A stretch of DNA of 32,000 nucleotides from Candidatus Jordarchaeales archaeon (GTDB taxonomy: Archaea > Asgardarchaeota > Jordiarchaeia > Jordiarchaeales > Freyrarchaeaceae), in assembly GCA_038889235.1 (NCBI GenBank), contig JAWAHN010000003.1, forward strand, positions 21,606-53,605. The letters run 5' to 3'. The notes under the pieces were generated by a model. The model saw only the letters and a list, made by a program, of their open reading frames with translations, was not told the DNA's origin and ran no database searches. The translations under genes and the position numbers were made by a program. Positions 10,092 to 21,709 of the stretch are shown here, one piece after another. How positions within the stretch are numbered: the first letter of the stretch is position 1; each line of letters opens with the position of its first letter.

Positions 10092-10350
10092 GCCAATCAC
10101 CCTTTTAAATCAGAGTATACCACCCCGCTCAGGAACCTATTCTACTTAACTCCTCCGAAGCAAATGTAGCACCGGGCAACGTCCATTAAACATGAAATAG
10201 ATGGGCGGCTCTTCCTCTTTTTTATTTCTGTCGAACCTCCTCTCAGTCGGCAGTTTTCCACGTGAACATCTTTCTCGCTACGGGCAGCCCCCTAAAGGAG
10301 GAAATCTTAAAAAGGGTTTTTAATTCTTATACGGGTTGGGGGGGTTTGTA

Positions 10351-11397
10351 ATGTCATTTCTTAAGCCTCCATCTCCCGATGAGGTCTTCTCGATATGGGT
10401 TAGCGGGATGAGAGATGACGAGGTCGAGGAGCTTTTCGCCCGAAAGGATATGCCGTTCGATAGGTCAAGCGTGTCTGCCGCGGAATTTGTTAAGGAAGTT
10501 GACAGGAAGATCGCAGTATTTTTCATGTCAAAGGTTGAAACCGAAAGTTTAGAGTCTGAAAAGAAGGAGAGCAACTACGAAGGACTGCTAAAAGTTAAAT
10601 TCTACGAGTTCCCTAAGGGGAAGGTTTCACCCGAACTCAAGCTAGACTCTAGGCTCCCCATGTTCAACTCGCTAGAGAAAGTTGAGTGCTCTGAATGTGC
10701 CGGTAAAGGCTATCTCGAGTGCGATAAGTGCGGTGGAAAAGGAACTTTACCTTGCAGTGAATGTGGCGAGAGCGGAGAGGTTTCTTGCGATGAGTGTGAT
10801 GGATCCAAAGAGATTACGCTAACCCTGAGCGTTATTTCGAATGGAGAGGAAGTGGAGAAGGAGCTGAAAATCCAGTGCCCCACGTGCTTCGGCTCCGGAA
10901 AAGTGGTGTGTGGCAAGTGTGGCGGGCTCACCAAGCTCGTCTGCAACGAGTGCGAAGGAGACGGCAAGTTCCCCTGCAAGAAGTGTAAAGGCGCCGGCAT
11001 TGTTTTCTCATACAGCATCTCGCCCCCGCCTGTTTCAGGGAAAAAAGCTTACCTCATATACTCTAAGCCCGAGATAGATGAAGCTTTATCAGAAATGCTG
11101 GTGGATAAGATAAGCCAGCTTGAAGCCGTAAAGGTGAACGACTACAAACAACTTAACAAAGACGACCTAGAAGCCCTGCTCGGCTTCTACAACAAGGACG
11201 TAGACAGTAAAGCCAGCAGGGCGAGGAAACTTTTCGCTGAACTCGAAAAGAAAGCCGACAAGACTGGTGAAACACCACTCTACCCAATATACATATTCCC
11301 GATAGTAAGGCTGGACGTAGAAACAGTCAAAGGGAAAAGAATACAAGTGTTTGCGGTGGGGGGCGAGAAAAACTACACCACAATCACACTGCGATGA
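10351..11397 (+). CDS. DnaJ-type cysteine-rich Zn-finger protein without J domain (SSUH2-like architecture)
   Basis: Eight CxxCxGxG-type repeats at nt 10687-10998; no HPD motif or J domain. Confidence 0.8.
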   Translation: MSFLKPPSPDEVFSIWVSGMRDDEVEELFARKDMPFDRSSVSAAEFVKEVDRKIAVFFMSKVETESLESEKKESNYEGLLKVKFYEFPKGKVSPELKLDSRLPMFNSLEKVECSECAGKGYLECDKCGGKGTLPCSECGESGEVSCDECDGSKEITLTLSVISNGEEVEKELKIQCPTCFGSGKVVCGKCGGLTKLVCNECEGDGKFPCKKCKGAGIVFSYSISPPPVSGKKAYLIYSKPEIDEALSEMLVDKISQLEAVKVNDYKQLNKDDLEALLGFYNKDVDSKASRARKLFAELEKKADKTGETPLYPIYIFPIVRLDVETVKGKRIQVFAVGGEKNYTTITLR

Positions 11398-12013: not shown

Positions 12014-12561
12014 TTTTTCTCTTACCTTTTGCTCATTACGAAAAAGGGAAGGGGGCTTGAATGCTCCTCAGCTCGCCGGGCTAGAAAGTGGCCACCAAGC
12101 TTTGGTGTAAGTGAAGCTTAAATTAGTCGACTTCGTTGTCATGTTGCTTACATGGGAAGCTTTGTCCGCGAATGTAATTTTAGAAAAACAGGAAACATTC
12201 TCTTGCCTGCTTAAGGCTTAACTTGGCATTGCTGAGATTTTCTTGAGGCAAGCGTTCTTCTGTCGGAGCTGTGTCACTCAACCCGGCGCTTGTTCTTTCA
12301 ACCATACGAGCTTTAACGAGCGAAAACTTGCTTCCAAGTACATTTCCGTCTCTCTCACAATTCCTCGTATTGCAGCGACTTATAGGCGTCCCGGCGTTTG
12401 CTGTTTTTCCAGAAGTGCTACTGAAGTTTCACCTGTTTTAATTTCTTTTGCAGCCCTCATACGCTGCTTCCTGAGCTTGGGTCTTCTGAGGACATTTTCC
12501 AGCGCGCATGTGATACCGTTCGTTTGGAAATGTCGTTTCACACTGTTCGAATTAAGACGTA

Positions 12562-12607
12562 AAATTTAAAACTTTGGTAATACTTTTTTGTAAAACAGTA
12601 ATATCAA
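12562..12607 (+). promoter_or_regulatory. TATA box plus NikR-type operator upstream of the orphan ECF operon
   Basis: AAATTTAAAA (12562-12571), then TTGGTAATAC (12574-12583)-N14-GTAATATCAA (12598-12607). One mismatch per half-site relative to the nikM operator, with identical spacing. Confidence 0.7.
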
Positions 12608-12608
12608 T

Positions 12609-13403
12609 ATGAGGGTGTGCACCGTGCGCGGCTACTTTACGACGCGAGACCTAGCATACGTGTCCGTCACAACCGTGATGGTCTACGTGGTTGCTTTTGT
12701 GGCCATAATGAGTGTTTCGGCGTTCACAGCATTTCCGGGAGCTAAGTCCATCGCGTCAGCCTTCTTCACGGCGATAGTGCTCGCCTTGGGCGCCATGAGG
12801 GTCAGAAAAATCGGAGTGATGAGCTTCGTAACACTCCTGTGGGGCCTAATAAGCGCCTTCCTCTTCCCAGCAGTCCCCATACTCCTCCCCGCTACGCTAA
12901 GTGGTGGAGTAGCCGCAGACATCCTAGTCTTCCTTCTCAGAAAGGACTACTCAAGTGAGAGCGCGACCACCATTGCTTGCGGCGTCAGAAGCGGCGTCTC
13001 AACGCTCGTTGTGCTGTTGCTGGTGCTGGTTTTCGGCTCAAGCTCGCTTAGAGGCGCACCGCTCATCTTCCAATTATATGGTGCCACGCTGAGAGTGCAG
13101 GCTTTCCTCATGTTCATCAGTTTGGCGGGTGTTCCACCAGATGTCGCGTCGCTCTTCGGAGTGATTCTTACCGTGGGTGTTCTAGGCGCCTTCATGCCGA
13201 ACTTGGGTGTTCCGGGGGAAATTGTGGCGTTTGCCGCGCCACTCCTGAAATTGCTAGGTGTTCAGGCTGGTGGCGTTGAAGCAGTGTTAACCCCATCGCT
13301 GATCGTCGTTATTTCGGCTCTTTGCTTCGCTCTTGGAGCCGCTGGCGGGTATGTTGGGGCACGCATAGGCAGGGAGCTTAAACTCGCGGGGGTTTACAGG
13401 TGA
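12609..13403 (+). CDS. ECF transporter S component, MptD/Trep_Strep-like, enlarged
   Basis: N-terminal FTTRDL, RVRKIG, GGVAAD and final helix GAAGGYVGARIGREL typical of this S-component type; first gene of an S-T-AA operon. Confidence 0.7.
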   Translation: MRVCTVRGYFTTRDLAYVSVTTVMVYVVAFVAIMSVSAFTAFPGAKSIASAFFTAIVLALGAMRVRKIGVMSFVTLLWGLISAFLFPAVPILLPATLSGGVAADILVFLLRKDYSSESATTIACGVRSGVSTLVVLLLVLVFGSSSLRGAPLIFQLYGATLRVQAFLMFISLAGVPPDVASLFGVILTVGVLGAFMPNLGVPGEIVAFAAPLLKLLGVQAGGVEAVLTPSLIVVISALCFALGAAGGYVGARIGRELKLAGVYR

Positions 13404-14170
13404 TGCTGAGAGGGCTTCAGCTGACTAGCACTAACACGTTTCTTAACGGCGTCGATCCGAGAGTCAAACTAGTGTTCGTTGCGGCTGTGAGTGTACTAAG
13501 TCTCGCTTTGAGCTCCTTTACCTCCCTTCTTTTTCTAGCACTGCTTCCAACTCTCACTCTGTCACTCGCTAGGGCGCTTGGCAGGGCTAGATTCTTCATT
13601 GTTTCGTTTCTCGTATTTTCTGCTCTGAGCGTTTTCGTTGTCTACCTTTTGAGGTTTGGCAGCGCTCTGGAATTTGCCAAGTTCTTTGTTAGGGTCTTCG
13701 CAGTGATGAACGCCGGCTTGTTCTTCGCTTTTACCACCTCACCCAACAAGTTTTCTAGGGGGCTTGAAAAGCTAAAGGTTCCGCGTTCAGTCTCCTTCAC
13801 ACTCACATTAACTATCAGGTTTATCCCTGTCTTTTTAAAGGAGGCGGAAGAAGTGTTGTCATCGTTGAAGGTGAGGGGGGTGAAGCTTGGGATAAGGGGG
13901 TTCATCAAAAACCCGAAGGTAGTATTACGGTCCTTGACCATACCTCTTATTGTACGCATGGTAAAAACCTCGGACGACCTGGCATCCGCCCTGGAGTCTA
14001 GAGGGTTTGGAAGCCCAGCTAAGAAGACCAGCCTTCACGAGGTGAAGGTAGGGAAGGTTGACTTAGCCTTCCTGTCCATCACTATGGCTTTCCTCGTCTC
14101 CCTCCTCTTGTTGGACCCATCCTTCTTCAGCTTTCTCGACTTTACAGCTTTCTGGAGGTTTATGGTTTGA
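13400..14170 (+). CDS. ecfT: ECF transporter T component
   Basis: DPRVKL, TIRFIPVF, LKVRG and LESRGF (two X-R-X coupling motifs); GTGA overlap with the upstream stop. Confidence 0.92.
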   Translation: MMLRGLQLTSTNTFLNGVDPRVKLVFVAAVSVLSLALSSFTSLLFLALLPTLTLSLARALGRARFFIVSFLVFSALSVFVVYLLRFGSALEFAKFFVRVFAVMNAGLFFAFTTSPNKFSRGLEKLKVPRSVSFTLTLTIRFIPVFLKEAEEVLSSLKVRGVKLGIRGFIKNPKVVLRSLTIPLIVRMVKTSDDLASALESRGFGSPAKKTSLHEVKVGKVDLAFLSITMAFLVSLLLLDPSFFSFLDFTAFWRFMV

Positions 14171-15822
14171 GCGTTGAGGTCGAGCGTTTAAGTTATCGCT
14201 ATCCCAACGCGGAAAGTGACTCGCTCGTCAACGTCGACTTGAAGGTTAGTAGAGGAGAGTTCGTTCTCCTCGTTGGTAGAAGCGGTTGCGGTAAGACGAC
14301 GCTGGCTAGGTGCATCAACGGACTTATACCACACGTGTTCAAGGGCGAACTCAGGGGGGTAGTTAGAGTTGACGGGGTCAACGTGGCTGAGACTCCCGTG
14401 TATGAGATGGCTAAACTCGTCGGCATGGTTTTTCAGAACCCTGACACTCAGCTCTGCACGTTAACTGTGGAAGACGAGGTTGCCTTCGGCCCTGAGAACA
14501 TTGGAGTTGAGAGAAGCGAAATTGAGGAGAGGGTTAAGTGGTCTCTTTCAAGTTTAGGGTTGGAAGGTCTTAGGTGGCGGAGCACTTTCAGTTTGTCCGA
14601 TGGAGAAAAACAAAGGGTGGCTGTGGCGGCCGCCCTATCCATGCTTCCAAAGGTTCTAGTGCTTGATGAGCCAACGGCGAACCTCGACCCGAAAGCCTCC
14701 GAGATGCTCGTCGACACACTGAGAAAGTTGAGAGACAAGTATGATACCACGATTATACTAGTTGAGCACAGAGTTGACAGGTTCATTGAAGCGGCTGACA
14801 GAGTTGTCGTGATGGATTCAGGGAGAATAGTCGAAGACGGGCCTCCAGAAGTTGTAGTCAGGAAGGCCGACGTATTGGAGAAGTTGGGAATTCGAGTGCC
14901 TGAAGTCGTCGAGCTGTGTAAAGCGGTTGGGATACCCCTAAACGGGGGGTTAGACGAACTTAGGTTCCTGGCCTTAGAGAGGATGAGGGAGCTGAGAGAG
15001 GCGAGCTTCGTCAACGACTGTTCGAGTCGCGGCGAGGAAATCCTGAGAATGGAGGATGTTGTGCTCAGTTACGGCGGTGTGTTCAGCCTTAGAGTTGACT
15101 TCTTCTCATTGTGCAGGGGGGAAGTTGTTGCTGTTATAGGTGGTAACGGCTCAGGAAAGACGACTCTCGCCAAGCTCATAGCTGGGCTCGTGAAGCCGAA
15201 AAAGGGTAGCATAAAAAGAGCGAAGGGTCTTAGGGTTGGGATGGTTTTCCAGAACTTCGAGGTTCAACTTTTCAGAAGTTCTGTCTTCGACGAGGTTGCC
15301 TTTCAACTCACCGAGAAGCTAGACCCAAACCACGTTAAACGTAGGGTGGAATCCGTCCTGGCGGAGATGGGGCTCCTAAGTCTAATCGGCAGACACCCTC
15401 ACTCCTTGAGCCAGGGTGAGAAGCAGAGAGTAGTCATAGCGTCTTTGATCGTCGACCCGCCGGACATACTCATACTCGACGAGCCGACAACAGGACAGGA
15501 CGGGCATCACCTCAAAATACTGGAGGAAGCGGTGAAGAAAATGAAGATGAGCGGCGTGGCCACCGTTGTCATAACACACGACTTGTCCTTCGCCGCAAGG
15601 GTGGCAGAGCGGGCGGCGGTGGTGAGCGGCGGGAGAATCGCGATGACAGGAGACATCAGAGACATTTTGTACAAAATAGACGAGCTTGCAGGCTTCACCC
15701 CTCCAGAAACCGTTAAACTAGCGAGGGAAGCGGGATTAAGAGGGATTATTAAGCCAGGGGACTTTCAGGGTGTGTTCTGCAGCAAAGATGTGAGGAGTAG
15801 TATCGTCCAATGGGGTTATTAA
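14167..15822 (+). CDS. ecfA: ECF ATPase with two fused ABC domains
   Basis: Walker A GRSGCGKTT and GGNGSGKTT, Q-loops FQNP/FQNF, signatures LSDGE/LSQGE, Walker B LDEPT twice; TTGA overlap with ecfT. Confidence 0.93.
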   Translation: MSVEVERLSYRYPNAESDSLVNVDLKVSRGEFVLLVGRSGCGKTTLARCINGLIPHVFKGELRGVVRVDGVNVAETPVYEMAKLVGMVFQNPDTQLCTLTVEDEVAFGPENIGVERSEIEERVKWSLSSLGLEGLRWRSTFSLSDGEKQRVAVAAALSMLPKVLVLDEPTANLDPKASEMLVDTLRKLRDKYDTTIILVEHRVDRFIEAADRVVVMDSGRIVEDGPPEVVVRKADVLEKLGIRVPEVVELCKAVGIPLNGGLDELRFLALERMRELREASFVNDCSSRGEEILRMEDVVLSYGGVFSLRVDFFSLCRGEVVAVIGGNGSGKTTLAKLIAGLVKPKKGSIKRAKGLRVGMVFQNFEVQLFRSSVFDEVAFQLTEKLDPNHVKRRVESVLAEMGLLSLIGRHPHSLSQGEKQRVVIASLIVDPPDILILDEPTTGQDGHHLKILEEAVKKMKMSGVATVVITHDLSFAARVAERAAVVSGGRIAMTGDIRDILYKIDELAGFTPPETVKLAREAGLRGIIKPGDFQGVFCSKDVRSSIVQWGY

Positions 15823-18429: not shown

Positions 18430-18475
18430 TTTATAAAACATTTGGTATTACTTTAAGACAAAAAAGTAATACCAA
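18430..18475 (+). promoter_or_regulatory. TATA box plus NikR operator of nikMNQO
   Basis: TTTATAAA at 18430-18437; perfect 13-bp inverted repeat TTGGTATTACTTT (18442-18454) / AAAGTAATACCAA (18463-18475). This is GTATTA-N16-TAATAC, the spacing of the NikR consensus GTATGA-N16-TCATAC. Confidence 0.88.
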
Positions 18476-18489
18476 GGTAGGGTGGTAGA

Positions 18490-19233
18490 GTGCACATACC
18501 CGATGGGTTCCTCGACCTGGGAGTAACTATGGTGTGCGCGGCGATCTCGGCGGCTTTCATCGTGATAGGGGTTATTCAGGCAAAGCGATACATGGACGAA
18601 AGACACGTCCCCTTAATGGCTGTATTGACGGCCGGAGTCTTCGCAGCCCAGCTGCTCAACTTCCCGATAATAGGCGGGACAAGCGGGCACCTGGTTGGAG
18701 GAACACTGCTAGCGGTCTTTCTAGGACCCCTCGGCGCTCTCCTTTCCATGACCGTCATCCTAGCAGTCCAAGCTCTCTTCTTCGGTGACGGTGGCATCAC
18801 AGCCCTAGGGGCTAACATACTGAACATGGGCGTCATAGGAGGCATCATAGGCTACTACGTTTACATCTTAGTTAGAAGGCTGGTGGGCAAAGGTGGATGG
18901 GGTGTAAGGATCGGAGCAGCTGTAGGCTCATACATCTCGGTAGTCCTAGGAGCCATAGCCTGCGGGGTTGAACTAGGTGTCTCGTCGCTCTTCCCCTTCC
19001 CCACCTGGATCACGGTTCCAGTGATGACGGGGTGGCACATGGTGATAGGGATTGGAGAAGCGCTGATAACCTTAGTTGTCATCGAGTACGTCCTTAGGGC
19101 TAGGCCGGACATGCTAGCCCTCCCTAAGGTAGGCTTCCGCGGCCTGCTAAAAGGCGTTAAAAGTGAGGAGCTGGAGGCGATGGAGAAAAAGGAGCTTGAA
19201 ACCGTGACCGGAAAAGTGGCTGGAGGGGGTTAA
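18490..19233 (+). CDS. nikM: Ni/Co ECF S component NikM/CbiM
   Basis: Metal-binding N-terminus MHIPDGFL, GTSGHLVGG, HMVIGIGEALIT. Confidence 0.92.
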   Translation: MHIPDGFLDLGVTMVCAAISAAFIVIGVIQAKRYMDERHVPLMAVLTAGVFAAQLLNFPIIGGTSGHLVGGTLLAVFLGPLGALLSMTVILAVQALFFGDGGITALGANILNMGVIGGIIGYYVYILVRRLVGKGGWGVRIGAAVGSYISVVLGAIACGVELGVSSLFPFPTWITVPVMTGWHMVIGIGEALITLVVIEYVLRARPDMLALPKVGFRGLLKGVKSEELEAMEKKELETVTGKVAGGG

Positions 19234-19234
19234 T

Positions 19235-19750
19235 GTGGCGTCGATAGTTGAAGCGATAAAGGCTACCTGGCGCCAGAGGTGGTTTAGGCTCAGCGTCCTA
19301 GCAGGGGTAATAGTGATAGGATTCTTCCTACCGCTTGCATCAACAGCTCCCGACGGCCTGGAGCGAACCGTAGAGAGTTTGGTCCAACCGCTAGACATCA
19401 CGTTGATGCTTATTTACTACGGCGAGGTGACAGGGGAGACGGGGCCCCTGAGTGCTTGGCTAACCTTCCTGGGAATCAACTACCTGTTGCGGGCGCCGAT
19501 GCCAGACTACGTGTTGCTTCAGCTAGCTCCGGGGGTTTATGTGAGCTACGTGCTTGAGATGATGAGTGCGCTCCAAGTGCTGGGACTAGCATCCTTCGAA
19601 ATTCCAGAAGACGTCGTAGCGCTGCTGCTTAGCTCGGCTGGCGGACACGAGTATCTGGCATCTCTCACAGCGTCGCTAATAGGTTTCTTCGTGGTTCTCG
19701 GAGTAACCTGGCTGGTTGGCTTCGCCCTCAAGAAGAGGAAGGCGGCTTAA
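19235..19750 (+). CDS. nikN: PDGLE-domain accessory protein (NikN-like)
   Basis: ASTAPDGLE and APMPDY motifs between two TM helices; directly after nikM. Confidence 0.85.
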   Translation: MASIVEAIKATWRQRWFRLSVLAGVIVIGFFLPLASTAPDGLERTVESLVQPLDITLMLIYYGEVTGETGPLSAWLTFLGINYLLRAPMPDYVLLQLAPGVYVSYVLEMMSALQVLGLASFEIPEDVVALLLSSAGGHEYLASLTASLIGFFVVLGVTWLVGFALKKRKAA

Positions 19751-19778
19751 GCTCCGCCGGGACGCCATGGGCGTTTGA

Positions 19779-19852
19779 GGGGGCTGCCGGGGGGTTTACA
19801 CAGTCCACCGCCCCCCACGTAACCCTCCCCCTCCCGGCACCCCCCTTTTTTT
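19779..19852 (+). terminator. GC-rich stem followed by T7 within the nik operon
   Basis: 19779-19794 pairs with 19830-19845 (5 bp, one C-C mismatch, 10 bp including one G-U), immediately followed by TTTTTTT at 19846-19852. Confidence 0.45.
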
Positions 19853-19923
19853 GGTATTATTTCGAACAAAAAGAATATTAACTCTGGACTTCATGTTTCC
19901 TTCAAAACTCGGAGGAAGCAGCG

Positions 19924-20847
19924 GTGCGTGGAGCCGGTTTCAAGGAGTTTTTCGAGCTGTTCGAGCGTCTTCTCGACGCTGAAAGGTTTAACAGTATAAA
20001 TTCACCTGTCCACAGGCTTGACCCCCGTGTCAAGATACTTGCTTCCACAGCCATCATACTGTCCGCCATAGCCGTGGACGGCTTCTTCTACCTGATACCG
20101 TTAGCGTTCGCAGTCCTGTTTTTGCTGTCCATCTCTAGGCTGCCTAGGGCTGTGTTTCTCTCCCGCTCACTTCCCTTCACTCTTCTCAGCGCACTGGTCG
20201 TTCTACCGGCCCCATTTGTGACCCCCGGGGTTCCCGCTGCAACAATTCACCTCCCCCTGGTCACCGTCACCCCGACATTTGAGGGGGTTTACAGGGCTGT
20301 AACCTTCGTTTTTAGAGTTTGGATCTGCATATCTTCGGCGCTGCTCCTAACTTTCACGACGAGATTCCCAGATATCGCCGCAGGGTTAAGGGGGATGGGG
20401 TTTCCATCCCTCCTTTCATTAATCCTGCTCCTAACATACAGGTACTCCTTCCTCTTCGCCGACGAGGCTTTGAAGATGCTTCAAGCAAAGGAGTCTAGGA
20501 CGCTTAAAAAGGAGGGCTTCTTCGAGAGGGTTAGGTTAGTTGGAAAAATGACCGGCTGCCTTCTCTTGAGAGCCTACGAGAAGGGTGAAGAAGTTTACTA
20601 CGCCATGAGCTTGAGAGGCTTCCATGGAGAGCTGGCTCCAACGGTCTCCAAGCTCAAGCTGAGGGCGTGTGACGTGGCGTTCGCCGTGGCGTTCACCGCG
20701 TTTTGCCTCACCGTTGCCCTGCTTGGGTGGGGTGGTCCATCTTTTGTGGCGTTCTGGCTTCCACTCGCCAAGATAATCGTGGTCAAAGCTTTGCTAAGGT
20801 GGGTCGTGTTAATAATACCTTTGTCGGGGGGCTTCGCTGTTGCGTAG
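19924..20847 (+). CDS. nikQ: Ni/Co ECF T component NikQ/CbiQ
   Basis: VHRLDPRVKI, LTYRYSFLF, KESR, MSLRGF; GGAGGA RBS. Confidence 0.92.
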   Translation: MRGAGFKEFFELFERLLDAERFNSINSPVHRLDPRVKILASTAIILSAIAVDGFFYLIPLAFAVLFLLSISRLPRAVFLSRSLPFTLLSALVVLPAPFVTPGVPAATIHLPLVTVTPTFEGVYRAVTFVFRVWICISSALLLTFTTRFPDIAAGLRGMGFPSLLSLILLLTYRYSFLFADEALKMLQAKESRTLKKEGFFERVRLVGKMTGCLLLRAYEKGEEVYYAMSLRGFHGELAPTVSKLKLRACDVAFAVAFTAFCLTVALLGWGGPSFVAFWLPLAKIIVVKALLRWVVLIIPLSGGFAVA

Positions 20848-21709
20848 TGTGGTTCTCGAAGCTGACGACGTCTGGTTCACCTACCCTGACGGCACACAGG
20901 CGTTGAAAGGAGTAAGCTTCAGGGTGTTTAGTGGGGAAACCGTGGTCCTGCTCGGGCCTAGTGGGGCTGGTAAGTCAACTCTGCTCCTCCACTTCGCGGG
21001 CATACTGTTTCCCACGTCTGGCAGCGTCTACGTTTGCGGCGAAAGGGTTTCGAGAAGGAACGTCAGAGAGGTGAGGAGACGCGTGGGCTTCGTCTTCCAG
21101 AACCCTGAAAGCCAGCTCTTCTGCCCGACCCTCTGGGAGGATGTGGCCTTTGGCCCAATTAACATGGGACTTCCGCCGGACGAGGTTGAGAGAAGGGTTA
21201 GGATGGCGCTGGAAGCCGTCGGCCTCCTAGACTACGCCCGTAAGCACCCTCACCACCTGAGTTTCGGGGAGAAGAGGAGAGCTGCCCTCGCCACAGTTCT
21301 ATCCATGGACCCCGAGATATATCTCTTCGACGAGCCGACAGCAAACCTTGACCCAAAAAACGCCTCGTATGTCGTCGGCAAGATAGTGCAGCTTTCAGAG
21401 GAGGGGAAAACCGTTCTAGTAGCAACACACGACATCAACATGCTTCCACAAGTGGCTTCGAGAGTCGTCGTTATGAGCGGCGGCAGAGTTGTCTCAGACG
21501 GGAAGCCGGAGGAGGTCCTTTCAGACTTCAAGCTCATCGAGGAAGCCGGGTTACAGCCGCCAGTGGTCACAAGCCTCCTCCATGGCATTCACGAAGAAGG
21601 AATACTGAACGTAGATACGCCGTACCCGATCTCCCTGGAGGCTGCGAAGTGGAAGATAAGGGAGAGCGTGAAGAAACTGCTGGAGGGTGCACGAAGCCCT
21701 GCAAAGTAA
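20840..21709 (+). CDS. nikO: Ni/Co ECF ATPase NikO/CbiO
   Basis: GPSGAGKST, FQNPESQLF, LSFGEKRR, FDEPT, ATHD. Confidence 0.93.
   Translation: MRSVVLEADDVWFTYPDGTQALKGVSFRVFSGETVVLLGPSGAGKSTLLLHFAGILFPTSGSVYVCGERVSRRNVREVRRRVGFVFQNPESQLFCPTLWEDVAFGPINMGLPPDEVERRVRMALEAVGLLDYARKHPHHLSFGEKRRAALATVLSMDPEIYLFDEPTANLDPKNASYVVGKIVQLSEEGKTVLVATHDINMLPQVASRVVVMSGGRVVSDGKPEEVLSDFKLIEEAGLQPPVVTSLLHGIHEEGILNVDTPYPISLEAAKWKIRESVKKLLEGARSPAK

What the first reader, a model, noticed from the sequence alone, without database searches (positions are those of the whole stretch)
12562..15822. Second, substrate-orphan ECF transporter carries the same NikR-type operator as nikMNQO
Seen: TTGGTAATAC-N14-GTAATATCAA here versus TTGGTATTAC-N14-GTAATACCAA before nikM. 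That is 18/20 half-site identities, the same AT-rich 14-nt spacer, and the same position just downstream of a TATA box over the expected start site. The operon is S-T-AA and its S component lacks the MH metal-binding N-terminus of NikM/CbiM. Known: NikR represses Ni uptake via GTATGA-N16-TCATAC-like sites; ECF modules can import metal-tetrapyrroles (cobalamin via BtuM/CbrT, heme via LhaSTA). Inference: an undescribed Ni-repressed uptake route for chelated nickel or a metal cofactor (Ni-metallophore, Ni-tetrapyrrole), co-regulated with the free-ion importer 3 kb away. nikR itself is not in the window.
Basis: partly seen in the sequence, partly recalled or inferred. Interest (0 to 1): 0.88.

Follow-up and report, generated by a model that had tools for sequence, protein, structure and literature searches.

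The report
Nickel-repressed ECF importer tied to chelatase
An Asgard archaeon puts an orphan vitamin-type (ECF) importer, its nickel-ion importer and a CobN/ChlID chelatase-like machine under one nickel-repressor (NikR) DNA box, which suggests an undescribed route for salvaging nickel, probably from an imported metal-tetrapyrrole, and gives two orphan protein families a testable job.

Summary
TTGGTAATAC-N14-GTAATATCAA (12574-12607) follows a TATA-like box and ends 16 nt before the S gene of an S-T-AA ECF operon. It matches the nikM box (18442-18475) at 18 of 20 arm positions.

The NikR reading is well supported:
- All nine orthologous S promoters with enough upstream sequence keep the box (52-82% protein identity).
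- nikM promoters across the Asgard phylum carry it, five of them next to a divergent nikR.
- The genome has two NikR genes; NikR1 aligns with all four nickel ligands of E. coli NikR.
- The core fits the published type-2 NikR consensus GTGTTAC-N13/14-GTAACAC.

New here: the same box also precedes the genome's only cobN-like gene and its chlI-D partner, about 40 kb beyond the window. This is conserved across the order. The five nearest non-orthologous relatives of the S component that I could place all sit beside tetrapyrrole chelatase genes. In one Helarchaeota contig two boxes lie between cobN-chlID and S-T-AA.

I found no tetrapyrrole synthesis genes and no MCR in the genome. In Methanothermobacter, CobN1 is made only under nickel limitation (PMC12350162).

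Best reading: a nickel-limitation regulon in which the ECF system imports a metal-tetrapyrrole-like chelate that CobN/ChlID processes. The substrate is inferred, not shown.

The scan has separately noted NikR-type boxes at cobN loci in Pyrodictium (e1-3168574, not checked here).

The parts
12560..12572 (+). TATA-like promoter element (TAAAATTTAAAAC) of the ECF operon
   Evidence: Read directly from the sequence. An equivalent TTTAAA(T/A) element precedes the box in all orthologous promoters.
12574..12607 (.). NikR-type operator TTGGTAATAC-N14-GTAATATCAA (core GTAATAC-N14-GTAATAT)
   Evidence: It is the top-scoring site in the genome (40.9 bits) with a matrix built only from sites of other genomes. 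It is conserved in all nine orthologous promoters with enough upstream sequence.
12611..12617 (+). Shine-Dalgarno-like GAGGGTG, 6 nt before the GTG start
   Evidence: Read directly from the sequence. Orthologues begin M(R/K)(G/S)YFTT, which fixes the start at 12624.
12624..13403 (+). ECF S component, 259 aa, divergent MptD/Trep_Strep family, with a 78-residue insertion of two to three helices between TM5 and the last helix. Alternative starts at 12609 and 12615.
   Evidence: PF09605 at 34.2 bits against a cut-off of 28.7. TIGR02185 at 24.3 bits, below its cut-off. The insertion is seen against 181-aa relatives. AF2 model pLDDT 84; best solved match is the ECF S component YkoE, 5EDL, probability 1.00.
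13400..14170 (+). ECF T component (CbiQ family), 256 aa
   Evidence: PF02361, E 1.4e-26. Overlaps the S gene by 4 nt.
14167..15822 (+). Fused double ECF ATPase (A-A'), 551 aa
   Evidence: Two ABC_tran domains; TIGR04520 at 396.8 bits and TIGR04521 at 375.5 bits, both above cut-off.
18442..18475 (.). NikR-type operator of nikMNQO, a perfect palindrome
   Evidence: The box is conserved before nikM across the Asgard phylum.
18490..21709 (+). nikM (18490-19233, starts MHIPDG), nikN (19235-19750, PDGLE domain), nikQ (19924-20847), nikO (20840-21709)
   Evidence: PF01891 E 1.2e-60, PF13190, PF02361 and PF00005.
19851..19884 (.). Weak extra box (TTGGTATTAT-N14-ATATTAACTC), 40 nt before nikQ
   Evidence: Ranks sixth in the genome-wide matrix scan at 13.6 bits. 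Uncertain.

Best explanation
The palindrome is the operator of a NikR-family nickel repressor, most likely the NikR1 paralogue. It sits between the TATA box and the start codon, so nickel-loaded NikR should block transcription initiation of the S-T-AA operon and release it when nickel is scarce. The operon belongs to a small, conserved nickel-limitation regulon. Its other members are nikMNQO (free Ni2+), a class-I chelatase-like pair (cobN-like plus fused chlI-D) and, in this genome, a methyltransferase. The S component is a divergent MptD-family protein. It most likely binds a metal-tetrapyrrole-type chelate, which the ECF module imports and the CobN/ChlID machine then processes. I found no tetrapyrrole synthesis genes and no F430 enzyme in this genome, so the likeliest purpose is to strip nickel from scavenged nickel-tetrapyrroles or similar chelates, much as HmuS harvests iron from heme. 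Status of each step: the site, its conservation, the regulon membership and the gene neighbourhoods are shown. NikR as the binder, and repression, are strongly inferred. The substrate and the direction of the chelatase reaction are inferred only.
For: SITE AND REGULATOR
- Two sites in the window and none in shuffles. Only three sites genome-wide have 2 or fewer arm mismatches.
- A matrix built from 34 sites of other genomes ranks the G000 sites as ECF-S 40.9, nikM 36.7, cobN 33.3, methyltransferase 27.7 and chlID 17.6 bits; the next site scores 13.6.
- All nine orthologous S promoters with enough upstream sequence keep TATA plus GTAWTAC-N14-GTAWTAC. In seven of them (the more distant orthologues, 52-64% identity) the box is doubled.
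- In genome G007 (3.8 Mb) the exact motif occurs only three times: once at nikM and twice at the S gene.
- nikM promoters across the phylum carry the box, including GTAACAC/GTGTTAC variants.
- In five of those loci a NikR1-like gene (34-52% identity) lies next to nikM. In L035 and L040 it is divergent, with the box in the shared intergenic region.
- Two NikR genes are present. NikR1 aligns with E. coli and P. horikoshii NikR with His76, His87, His89 and Cys95 kept.
- The published type-2 NikR consensus is GTGTTAC-N13/14-GTAACAC (PMC545781).

LINK TO THE CHELATASE
- The box lies 30 nt before the only cobN-like gene (G000 C3:94442-94475) and about 20 nt before the chlI-D gene (C3:89457-89490).
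- The box is conserved at cobN in G002-G005, G007-G009, G016 and G053, and at chlID in G001-G004.
- The five nearest non-orthologous S relatives with usable contigs all neighbour chelatase genes: CobN, ChlID, CobN+ChlID twice, and CbiX.
- Helarchaeota contig L093 has two boxes between cobN-chlID and S-T-AA, with none in 200 shuffles.

PHYSIOLOGY
- CbiC, CbiX, ALAD, HemC and MCR were not found in G000 (95% complete). ACS and a [NiFe]-hydrogenase are present.

LITERATURE
- The CobN-like protein HmuS is a heme de-chelatase, and the role of its archaeal homologues is called unclear (PMC12583661).
Against: - There are no binding or expression data for this organism.
- The S orthologue is patchy: it was found in only 3 of 10 other genomes of the order (G002 only as a weak fragment), while box-bearing cobN is in 9 of 10. 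The chelatase module therefore does not depend on this importer.
- The CobN-like protein is closer in sequence to the inserting enzymes ChlH and CobN (E 1e-175 and 1e-169) than to the de-chelatase HmuS (E 5e-107). It also keeps an ATP-driven ChlID partner, which heme de-chelation by HmuS does not need.
- No His, Cys or Met residue is conserved across the S family, so nothing points to a particular metal or axial ligand.
- The fold search confirms an S-component fold but says nothing about the substrate.
- Gene neighbourhood with a chelatase would fit equally well an importer of the metal ion itself.
- Neither nikR gene has a box upstream, and it is not settled which paralogue binds.
Confidence: 0.5

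Rival explanations
1. A second free-ion importer. The MptD-type ECF system takes up Ni2+ (or Co2+) itself, perhaps with different affinity from NikMNQO, and supplies metal to the CobN/ChlID chelatase and other enzymes. This would mirror cbiMNQO sitting beside cobalt chelatase genes in B12 clusters.
For: It shares the NikR-type box with nikMNQO. Its neighbourhood with chelatases is the same kind of evidence that links cbiMNQO to B12 genes. Redundant metal importers are common (general knowledge).
Against: There is no MH N-terminus and no CbiM/NikM match. No His, Cys or Met is conserved in the family. The closest solved fold is an organic-substrate S component, YkoE. G000 was not found to make tetrapyrroles, so the chelatase-like module still needs an imported macrocycle.
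Confidence: 0.15
2. Corrinoid or cobalt salvage. The regulator responds to nickel and/or cobalt. The ECF system imports a corrinoid, possibly metal-free or damaged. CobN/ChlID acts as a late cobaltochelatase, and the M/N/Q/O system supplies cobalt.
For: G000 was not found to have CbiC or CbiX but has CbiB and a corrinoid-dependent ACS, so it must import corrinoids. For haloarchaea, CobN/ChlID has been speculated to serve cobalamin salvage (PMC8305020). ECF S components for cobalamin exist (BtuM, CbrT; general knowledge).
Against: The linked regulator family is NikR with all four nickel ligands kept. The N subunit is PDGLE-type, with no curated CbiN match. In M. marburgensis CobN1 responds to nickel limitation. 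Metal-free corrinoids are rare in anoxic habitats, where cobalt goes in early (general knowledge).
Confidence: 0.15
3. A nickel-sparing response. Under nickel shortage the cell imports a cofactor or precursor needed by a nickel-independent substitute pathway, and CobN/ChlID builds or remodels that cofactor. Nickel is the signal, not the cargo.
For: NikR-type control of nickel-independent isoenzymes has been predicted ([Fe]-hydrogenase in Desulfovibrio, PMC545781). It is also seen in methanogens, where Hmd and Mtd rise under nickel limitation (PMC3087415).
Against: No candidate nickel-independent substitute carries the box in G000; the regulon has only five clear members.
Confidence: 0.08
4. 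The box is real and shared but is bound by a regulator other than NikR, for example the RHH-plus-winged-helix protein at G000 C1:487646-488140, whose own upstream region carries ATATTAC/GTAATAC repeats.
For: That gene has three similar half-sites upstream, though with 4-nt spacing. No binding data exist. The nikR genes of G000 have no box of their own.
Against: nikR-nikM pairs in other Asgard genomes flank the box, divergent with the box in the shared intergenic region in L035 and L040. The half-site and spacing fit the published NikR type-2 signal. The other site has different geometry.
Confidence: 0.07

Closest known systems
NikR operators of nikMNQO-type nickel importers (type-2 signal GTGTTAC-N13/14-GTAACAC; Rodionov et al. 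2004, PMC545781)
   Same: Two 7-nt arms 13-14 nt apart, in the promoter of a nickel importer, in a genome encoding NikR. The arm differs from the consensus at one position (GTAWTAC against GTGTTAC), and some Asgard nikM sites carry the consensus itself.
   Different: Here the box also controls a non-NikM ECF importer and a class-I chelatase-like module. It sits against an archaeal TATA box. It differs from the E. coli site GTATGA-N16-TCATAC in both arm and spacing.
LhaSTA of Staphylococcus lugdunensis (heme ECF importer under iron control, PMC7299338)
   Same: A dedicated S-T-A ECF operon, controlled by the repressor of the metal it helps to acquire, importing a metal-tetrapyrrole as a metal source.
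   Different: Its substrate is shown (heme); ours is not. Its regulator is Fur, not NikR. I could not test whether LhaS belongs to the same S family. Ours has a 78-residue insertion and a fused double ATPase.
HmuS / BtuS CobN-like heme de-chelatases of Bacteroidota (PMC12583661, PMC6460266)
   Same: A CobN-family protein encoded with an import system and used to free a metal from an imported tetrapyrrole. One S relative (P0017) even sits in a TonB-receptor, CobN, S, T cluster.
   Different: The archaeal protein is closer to ChlH/CobN than to HmuS. It keeps a ChlI-D ATPase partner. The metal implied by regulation is nickel. No activity has been shown.
MptD of Mycobacterium avium subsp. paratuberculosis (name-giver of the S family)
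   Same: Same Pfam family (PF09605). It is encoded on an island of predicted metal-acquisition genes, and its substrate is unknown (PMC4132290).
   Different: Very distant in sequence: the window protein is below the NCBIfam cut-off. Our protein carries an extra 78 residues.
CobN1 of Methanothermobacter marburgensis
   Same: An archaeal CobN homologue of unknown role, produced at high level only under nickel limitation together with a NikR homologue (PMC12350162).
   Different: That is proteomics in a methanogen that makes F430. Operator and transporter links are not described there. I could not check orthology to the Asgard gene.

Membership tests
NikR operator | Two symmetric half-sites about 13-16 nt apart in the promoter of a nickel-uptake gene | tested here: met
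   GTAWTAC-N14-GTAWTAC sits directly before nikM and before the S gene, and before nikM across the phylum.
NikR operator | Sequence match to a described NikR consensus | tested here: inconclusive
   6 of 7 positions per arm match the type-2 consensus GTGTTAC-N13/14-GTAACAC. There is no match to the E. coli GTATGA-N16-TCATAC site.
NikR operator | A NikR with intact nickel ligands is encoded in the genome and is genomically linked to the box | tested here: met
   Two NikR_C+RHH genes are present. The ligands His76, His87, His89 and Cys95 align in NikR1. A NikR1-like gene lies next to nikM in five relatives; in L035 and L040 it is divergent with the box in between.
NikR operator | Nickel-dependent binding by NikR and nickel-dependent repression | not testable with these tools
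   Needs EMSA or footprinting and expression data.
Group I (dedicated) ECF transporter | S, T and two A domains encoded in one operon | tested here: met
   PF09605, PF02361 and 2x PF00005, with TIGR04520/TIGR04521 above cut-off and 4-nt gene overlaps. The same order is kept in all orthologous loci.
Group I (dedicated) ECF transporter | S-component fold | tested here: met
   AF2 model pLDDT 84. The best PDB match is the S component 5EDL (probability 1.00, TM 0.63 by target), then PanT 6ZG3. YkoE and RibU appear in the AFDB search.
MptD / Trep_Strep S components (PF09605, TIGR02185) | Score above the curated family cut-off | tested here: inconclusive
   Pfam 34.2 bits against a cut-off of 28.7: met. 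NCBIfam 24.3 bits against 76.45: not met. This is a divergent subfamily with a 78-residue insertion.
NikM/CbiM metal S components | N-terminal Met-His metal site and a PF01891 match | tested here: not met
   The N-terminus is MRGYFTT and there is no PF01891 hit at E 0.01 or better.
Class I (ATP-driven) tetrapyrrole chelatase (partner module, outside the window) | Large CobN/ChlH subunit plus an AAA+ and VWA (ChlI/ChlD) subunit | tested here: met
   PF02514 at 1153 bits plus DUF3479. The 642-aa partner has Mg_chelatase, AAA_lid_2 and VWA domains. The pair is linked or in one operon in relatives.
HmuS de-chelatase subfamily | HmuS-specific insertion and the Met-79/His-254 heme site named in PMC12583661 | not tested
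   Only overall similarity was compared: HmuS 9D26 E 4.8e-107 against ChlH 6.8e-175 and CobN 6.4e-169. Membership is therefore unlikely; a working analogy remains possible.

The most novel reading that the evidence does not exclude
Asgard archaea, and perhaps many other archaea, run an ATP-driven nickel de-chelatase. When nickel is scarce, NikR releases an MptD-type ECF importer that takes up environmental nickel-tetrapyrroles (F430 and its breakdown products, or nickel porphyrins). NikR also releases a CobN/ChlID machine that pulls the nickel out for hydrogenase and CODH/ACS. This would be nickel piracy from the cofactor of neighbouring methanogens, and it would explain the long-unassigned archaeal CobN homologues.
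Probability: 0.25. Interest if true: 0.9.

Novelty: new variant of a known kind. Interest (0 to 1): 0.74.

Why it matters
Two open questions become directly testable.

First, what do the many archaeal CobN/ChlH/HmuS homologues do in organisms without chlorophyll, aerobic B12 or hmu pathways? The HmuS paper calls this unclear (PMC12583661), and it is listed as an open issue for haloarchaea (PMC8305020).

Second, what do MptD/Trep_Strep ECF S components carry? A shared NikR box, conserved gene neighbourhoods and the published nickel-limitation proteome of a methanogen all point to nickel.

If the cargo is a nickel-tetrapyrrole, this would be a new way of acquiring a trace metal and a new ecological link between Asgard archaea and F430-producing methanogens. 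If not, the work still defines a compact, conserved archaeal NikR regulon with a clear operator. That regulon can be used for annotation and as a nickel-responsive promoter set.

Tried and rejected
- Rodionov et al. 2006, the main NikR and Nik/Cbi comparative paper, is not held. I cannot exclude that archaeal NikR sites at such genes were listed there.
- A literature search for ECF together with CobN/ChlI found no paper holding both. One search on LhaS/HtsT terms was swamped by unrelated words.
- The LhaSTA paper does not name the Pfam family of LhaS.
I therefore made no large neighbourhood survey of named genomes.
- The Foldseek PDB and Swiss-Prot searches confirm only the S fold. The ESM Atlas returns only Trep_Strep clusters.
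- No nicotianamine-synthase-like gene was found, so there is no support for an opine or nicotianamine metallophore route.
- Neither nikR gene has a box upstream.
- I saw no clear box upstream of the chlID-S pair in L046 or in the L094 intergenic region. Both are very A/T-rich, so weak matches there mean little.
- The Trep_Strep-like 350-aa proteins of Asgard family f12 belong to a different subfamily and were set aside.
- Chance was rejected as an explanation for the shared box: zero matches in shuffles, plus conservation.


Full report
**1. Observation**

A pattern search finds the described palindrome at exactly two places in the window, with none in 100 dinucleotide-preserving shuffles:
- 12574-12607: TTGGTAATAC-TTTTTTGTAAAACA-GTAATATCAA
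- 18442-18475: TTGGTATTAC-TTTAAGACAAAAAA-GTAATACCAA

The arms agree at 18 of 20 positions and both spacers are A/T-rich 14-mers. Each site directly follows a TATA-like element. Each ends 15-16 nt before the start codon, with a GGTG-type ribosome-binding site in between. The promoters are archaeal in type. The closest named homologues of the S protein come from Candidatus Jordarchaeum.

Downstream of the first site lie three genes joined by 4-nt overlaps:
- an S component (12624-13403)
- a CbiQ-type T component (13400-14170)
- a fused double ATPase (14167-15822)

The second site precedes nikM, whose product starts MHIPDG, followed by nikN, nikQ and nikO.

**2. Is it more than chance?**

In the whole 2.14-Mb assembly only three sites have 2 or fewer mismatches in the 20 arm positions; the next best has 4. 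The bare 14-position core is not rare on its own: 4 hits at 1 or fewer mismatches, against about 2.4 in shuffles. The argument therefore rests on extended arms, position and conservation.

Conservation is strong. Nine orthologous S loci have enough upstream sequence, at 52-82% protein identity, from two GTDB genomes and seven metagenome contigs. All nine keep the TATA element followed by GTAWTAC-N14-GTAWTAC, while the surrounding sequence has diverged. In seven of them, the more distant orthologues, the box is doubled. A tenth locus is cut off inside the box. In genome G007 (3.8 Mb) the exact motif occurs three times in all: once before nikM and twice before the S gene.

I built a weight matrix from 34 sites taken only from other genomes and scanned G000 with it:

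| Site in G000 | Score (bits) |
|---|---|
| ECF S | 40.9 |
| nikM | 36.7 |
| cobN-like | 33.3 |
| methyltransferase | 27.7 |
| chlI-D | 17.6 |
| next best | 13.6 |

**3. Who binds it?**

The genome encodes two NikR paralogues (RHH plus NikR_C), both outside the window. NikR1 aligns with P. horikoshii NikR (E 1.7e-28) and E. coli NikR (E 8e-19). The four ligands of the high-affinity nickel site are conserved.

The same box precedes nikM-type genes in many Asgard families. Some of these carry GTAACAC/GTGTTAC arms, which is the type-2 NikR signal derived by comparative genomics, GTGTTAC-N13/14-GTAACAC (PMC545781). In five of these loci a NikR1-like gene lies next to nikM. In L035 and L040 it is transcribed divergently, with the box in the shared intergenic region. 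That is the usual arrangement of a local regulator and its target.

I conclude with high confidence (about 0.85) that the box is a NikR operator. Its position against the TATA box and over the expected transcription start implies repression by promoter occlusion. That step is inferred.

**4. What the S component is**

It matches Pfam Trep_Strep (PF09605) just above the cut-off. It matches NCBIfam MptD (TIGR02185) well below the cut-off.

An exhaustive search of 1.8 billion representatives finds a single full-length cluster. The next relatives are about 181-aa proteins at 35-40% identity. Against them the window protein has a 78-residue hydrophobic insertion before the last helix. The AlphaFold model (pLDDT 84) folds this insertion as two long helices and one short one. 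The best solved match is the ECF S component YkoE, 5EDL.

There is no MH N-terminus and no conserved His, Cys or Met. The conserved polar residues are Arg8, Lys62, Asp99, Tyr109 and Glu251. The family has no known substrate. Its name-giver MptD lies on an island of predicted metal-acquisition genes (PMC4132290).

The subfamily is patchy:
- Among 60 relatives it was found only in G007 and G008, plus a weak fragment in G002.
- Among 300 Asgard genomes, Trep_Strep matches occur only in G007, G008 and one other family.

**5. The new link: a chelatase-like module in the same regulon**

The fourth-best arm match genome-wide lies 30 nt before the ATG of the genome's only cobN-like gene. The site is G000 C3:94442-94475, reading TTGGTAATAC-N14-TTAATATCGA. 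The gene encodes 1229 aa (PF02514 at 1153 bits) and lies about 40 kb beyond the window.

A further site, GGTAATAC-N14-TTAATAA at C3:89457-89490, lies about 20 nt before a 642-aa fused ChlI-ChlD protein with AAA+, lid and VWA domains.

Both boxes are conserved:
- at cobN in G002, G003 and G004
- in four Jordarchaeum genomes, where chlID follows cobN in one operon
- in G053 and G016, which belong to other Asgard families
- at chlID in G001-G004

Independently, I looked up the five nearest non-orthologous relatives of the S protein whose contigs were long enough to read. All five sit beside tetrapyrrole chelatase genes:

| S relative | Neighbourhood |
|---|---|
| P0017 | TonB receptor, CobN, S, T |
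| P0013 | ChlI-D overlapping S |
| P0019 (Helarchaeota MAG) | cobN-chlID divergent from S-T-AA |
| P0018 | chlID-cobN divergent from S-T-AA |
| P0041 | S-T-A-A followed by two CbiX genes |

In the Helarchaeota contig the 240-nt region between cobN and S holds two tandem boxes, ATATTAC-N14-GTAATAC and ATATTAC-N14-GTAATAT. None of 200 shuffles gave any match. Co-regulation in one lineage and adjacency in others are two independent lines tying this S family to class-I chelatase-like proteins.

**6. Physiological frame**

In G000 (95% complete) I found no ALAD, HemC, CbiC or CbiX, so no de novo tetrapyrrole or corrin synthesis was detected. I also found no MCR, so no F430 enzyme. It does have CbiB, the ACS subunit CdhC and a [NiFe]-hydrogenase, which means a high nickel demand and dependence on imported corrinoids. 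Absence in a draft genome is not proof. If it holds, any macrocycle handled by CobN/ChlID must be imported.

The literature agrees on three points:
- CobN-like proteins were once guessed to be nickel chelatases (PMC3087415).
- The CobN-like protein HmuS is a heme de-chelatase, and the role of its many archaeal homologues is called unclear (PMC12583661).

**7. Mechanism proposed**

With nickel replete, Ni-NikR sits on the boxes and blocks initiation. With nickel scarce, the cell de-represses four units:
- NikMNQO, for the free ion
- the MptD-type ECF importer
- the CobN/ChlID machine
- a methyltransferase

The simplest coherent reading is that the ECF system imports a nickel-bearing tetrapyrrole-like chelate and CobN/ChlID, using ATP, removes the nickel.

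| Step | Probability |
|---|---|
| Box is a NikR operator | about 0.85 |
| Functional coupling of the importer to CobN/ChlID | about 0.7 |
| Cargo is a tetrapyrrole-type chelate | about 0.5 |
| Nickel salvage by de-chelation | about 0.25-0.3 |

Points against this reading:
- The CobN-like protein is nearer to ChlH and CobN than to HmuS.
- It keeps an ATPase partner typical of inserting enzymes.
- cobN with its box is much more widespread than the S gene.
- A metal-ion importer would show the same neighbourhoods.

**8. Rivals**

- A second free Ni2+/Co2+ importer (0.15).
- Corrinoid or cobalt salvage, with CobN/ChlID as a late cobaltochelatase as speculated for haloarchaea (PMC8305020) (0.15).
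- A nickel-sparing response in which nickel is only the signal (0.08).
- A regulator other than NikR (0.07).
- Pure chance is excluded for practical purposes.

**9. Comparison with known systems and novelty**

A NikR operator before a nickel importer is known. So are the ECF architecture and metal-tetrapyrrole import by ECF systems (LhaSTA for heme, BtuM/CbrT for cobalamin).

To my knowledge, and within the searchable library, three things have not been described:
- NikR control of a non-NikM ECF importer
- NikR control of an archaeal CobN/ChlID module
- a conserved association of MptD-family S components with chelatase genes

I could not read Rodionov et al. 2006, which is the most likely place for partial precedence. 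I did not test that note; it is consistent with a wider archaeal pattern.

I class the finding as a new variant of a known kind, with interest 0.74.

Noticed in passing
window 19851-19884: A weak NikR-type box (TTGGTATTAT-N14-ATATTAACTC) lies in the 173-nt nikN-nikQ spacer, 40 nt before nikQ. It ranks sixth genome-wide in the matrix scan (13.6 bits). It may mark an internal nickel-controlled promoter for nikQO.
   Followed up: partly
G000 C2:208410-208443 (locus L058 4011-4044): A box with perfect core arms abuts the 5' end of a class I SAM methyltransferase (Methyltransf_11, 294 aa, probably leaderless), divergent from a Sybindin/longin-like gene. It scores 27.7 bits, making it the fourth regulon member. 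Its role is unknown and I did not check conservation in relatives.
   Followed up: partly
G000 C1:488199-488234 (locus L095): Three similar half-sites with 4-nt spacing (GATATTAC-TGAT-GATATTAC-TTTT-GTAATAC) lie between a 164-aa RHH plus winged-helix regulator and an M24 metallopeptidase gene. This looks like a different RHH regulator using related half-sites.
   Followed up: partly
L093 6037-6110 (Helarchaeota MAG contig): Two tandem NikR-type boxes lie in the intergenic region between cobN-chlID and an MptD-type S-T-AA operon. This S protein (206 aa) has a shorter insertion at the same place as the window protein.
   Followed up: yes
L059 311-1433 (G000 C3:89586-90708): Two 4Fe-4S ferredoxin-domain genes (285 and 87 aa) lie between chlI-D and the 3' end of cobN. 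They could be electron donors for the chelatase-like module; HmuS activity needs a reductant.
   Followed up: no
L052, L054, L055, L056 (Asgard family f12): Proteins of about 350 aa have a Trep_Strep-like N-terminal half (YYFRTRDL...). Each is encoded next to a membrane protein of about 390-455 aa. This is a separate, unexplained S-like subfamily.
   Followed up: no
L006 (G002:C48:8988-9218): A same-genus genome has only a weak, short match to the S protein (39% over 80 residues) with an in-frame TAG. It could be a remnant, a paralogue or a recoded codon.
   Followed up: no
window 10336-11397: The 353-aa protein with many CxxCxGxG repeats upstream of the ECF operon is syntenic with the operon in a metagenome contig (346-aa gene before S in L007). 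It has no box of its own.
   Followed up: no
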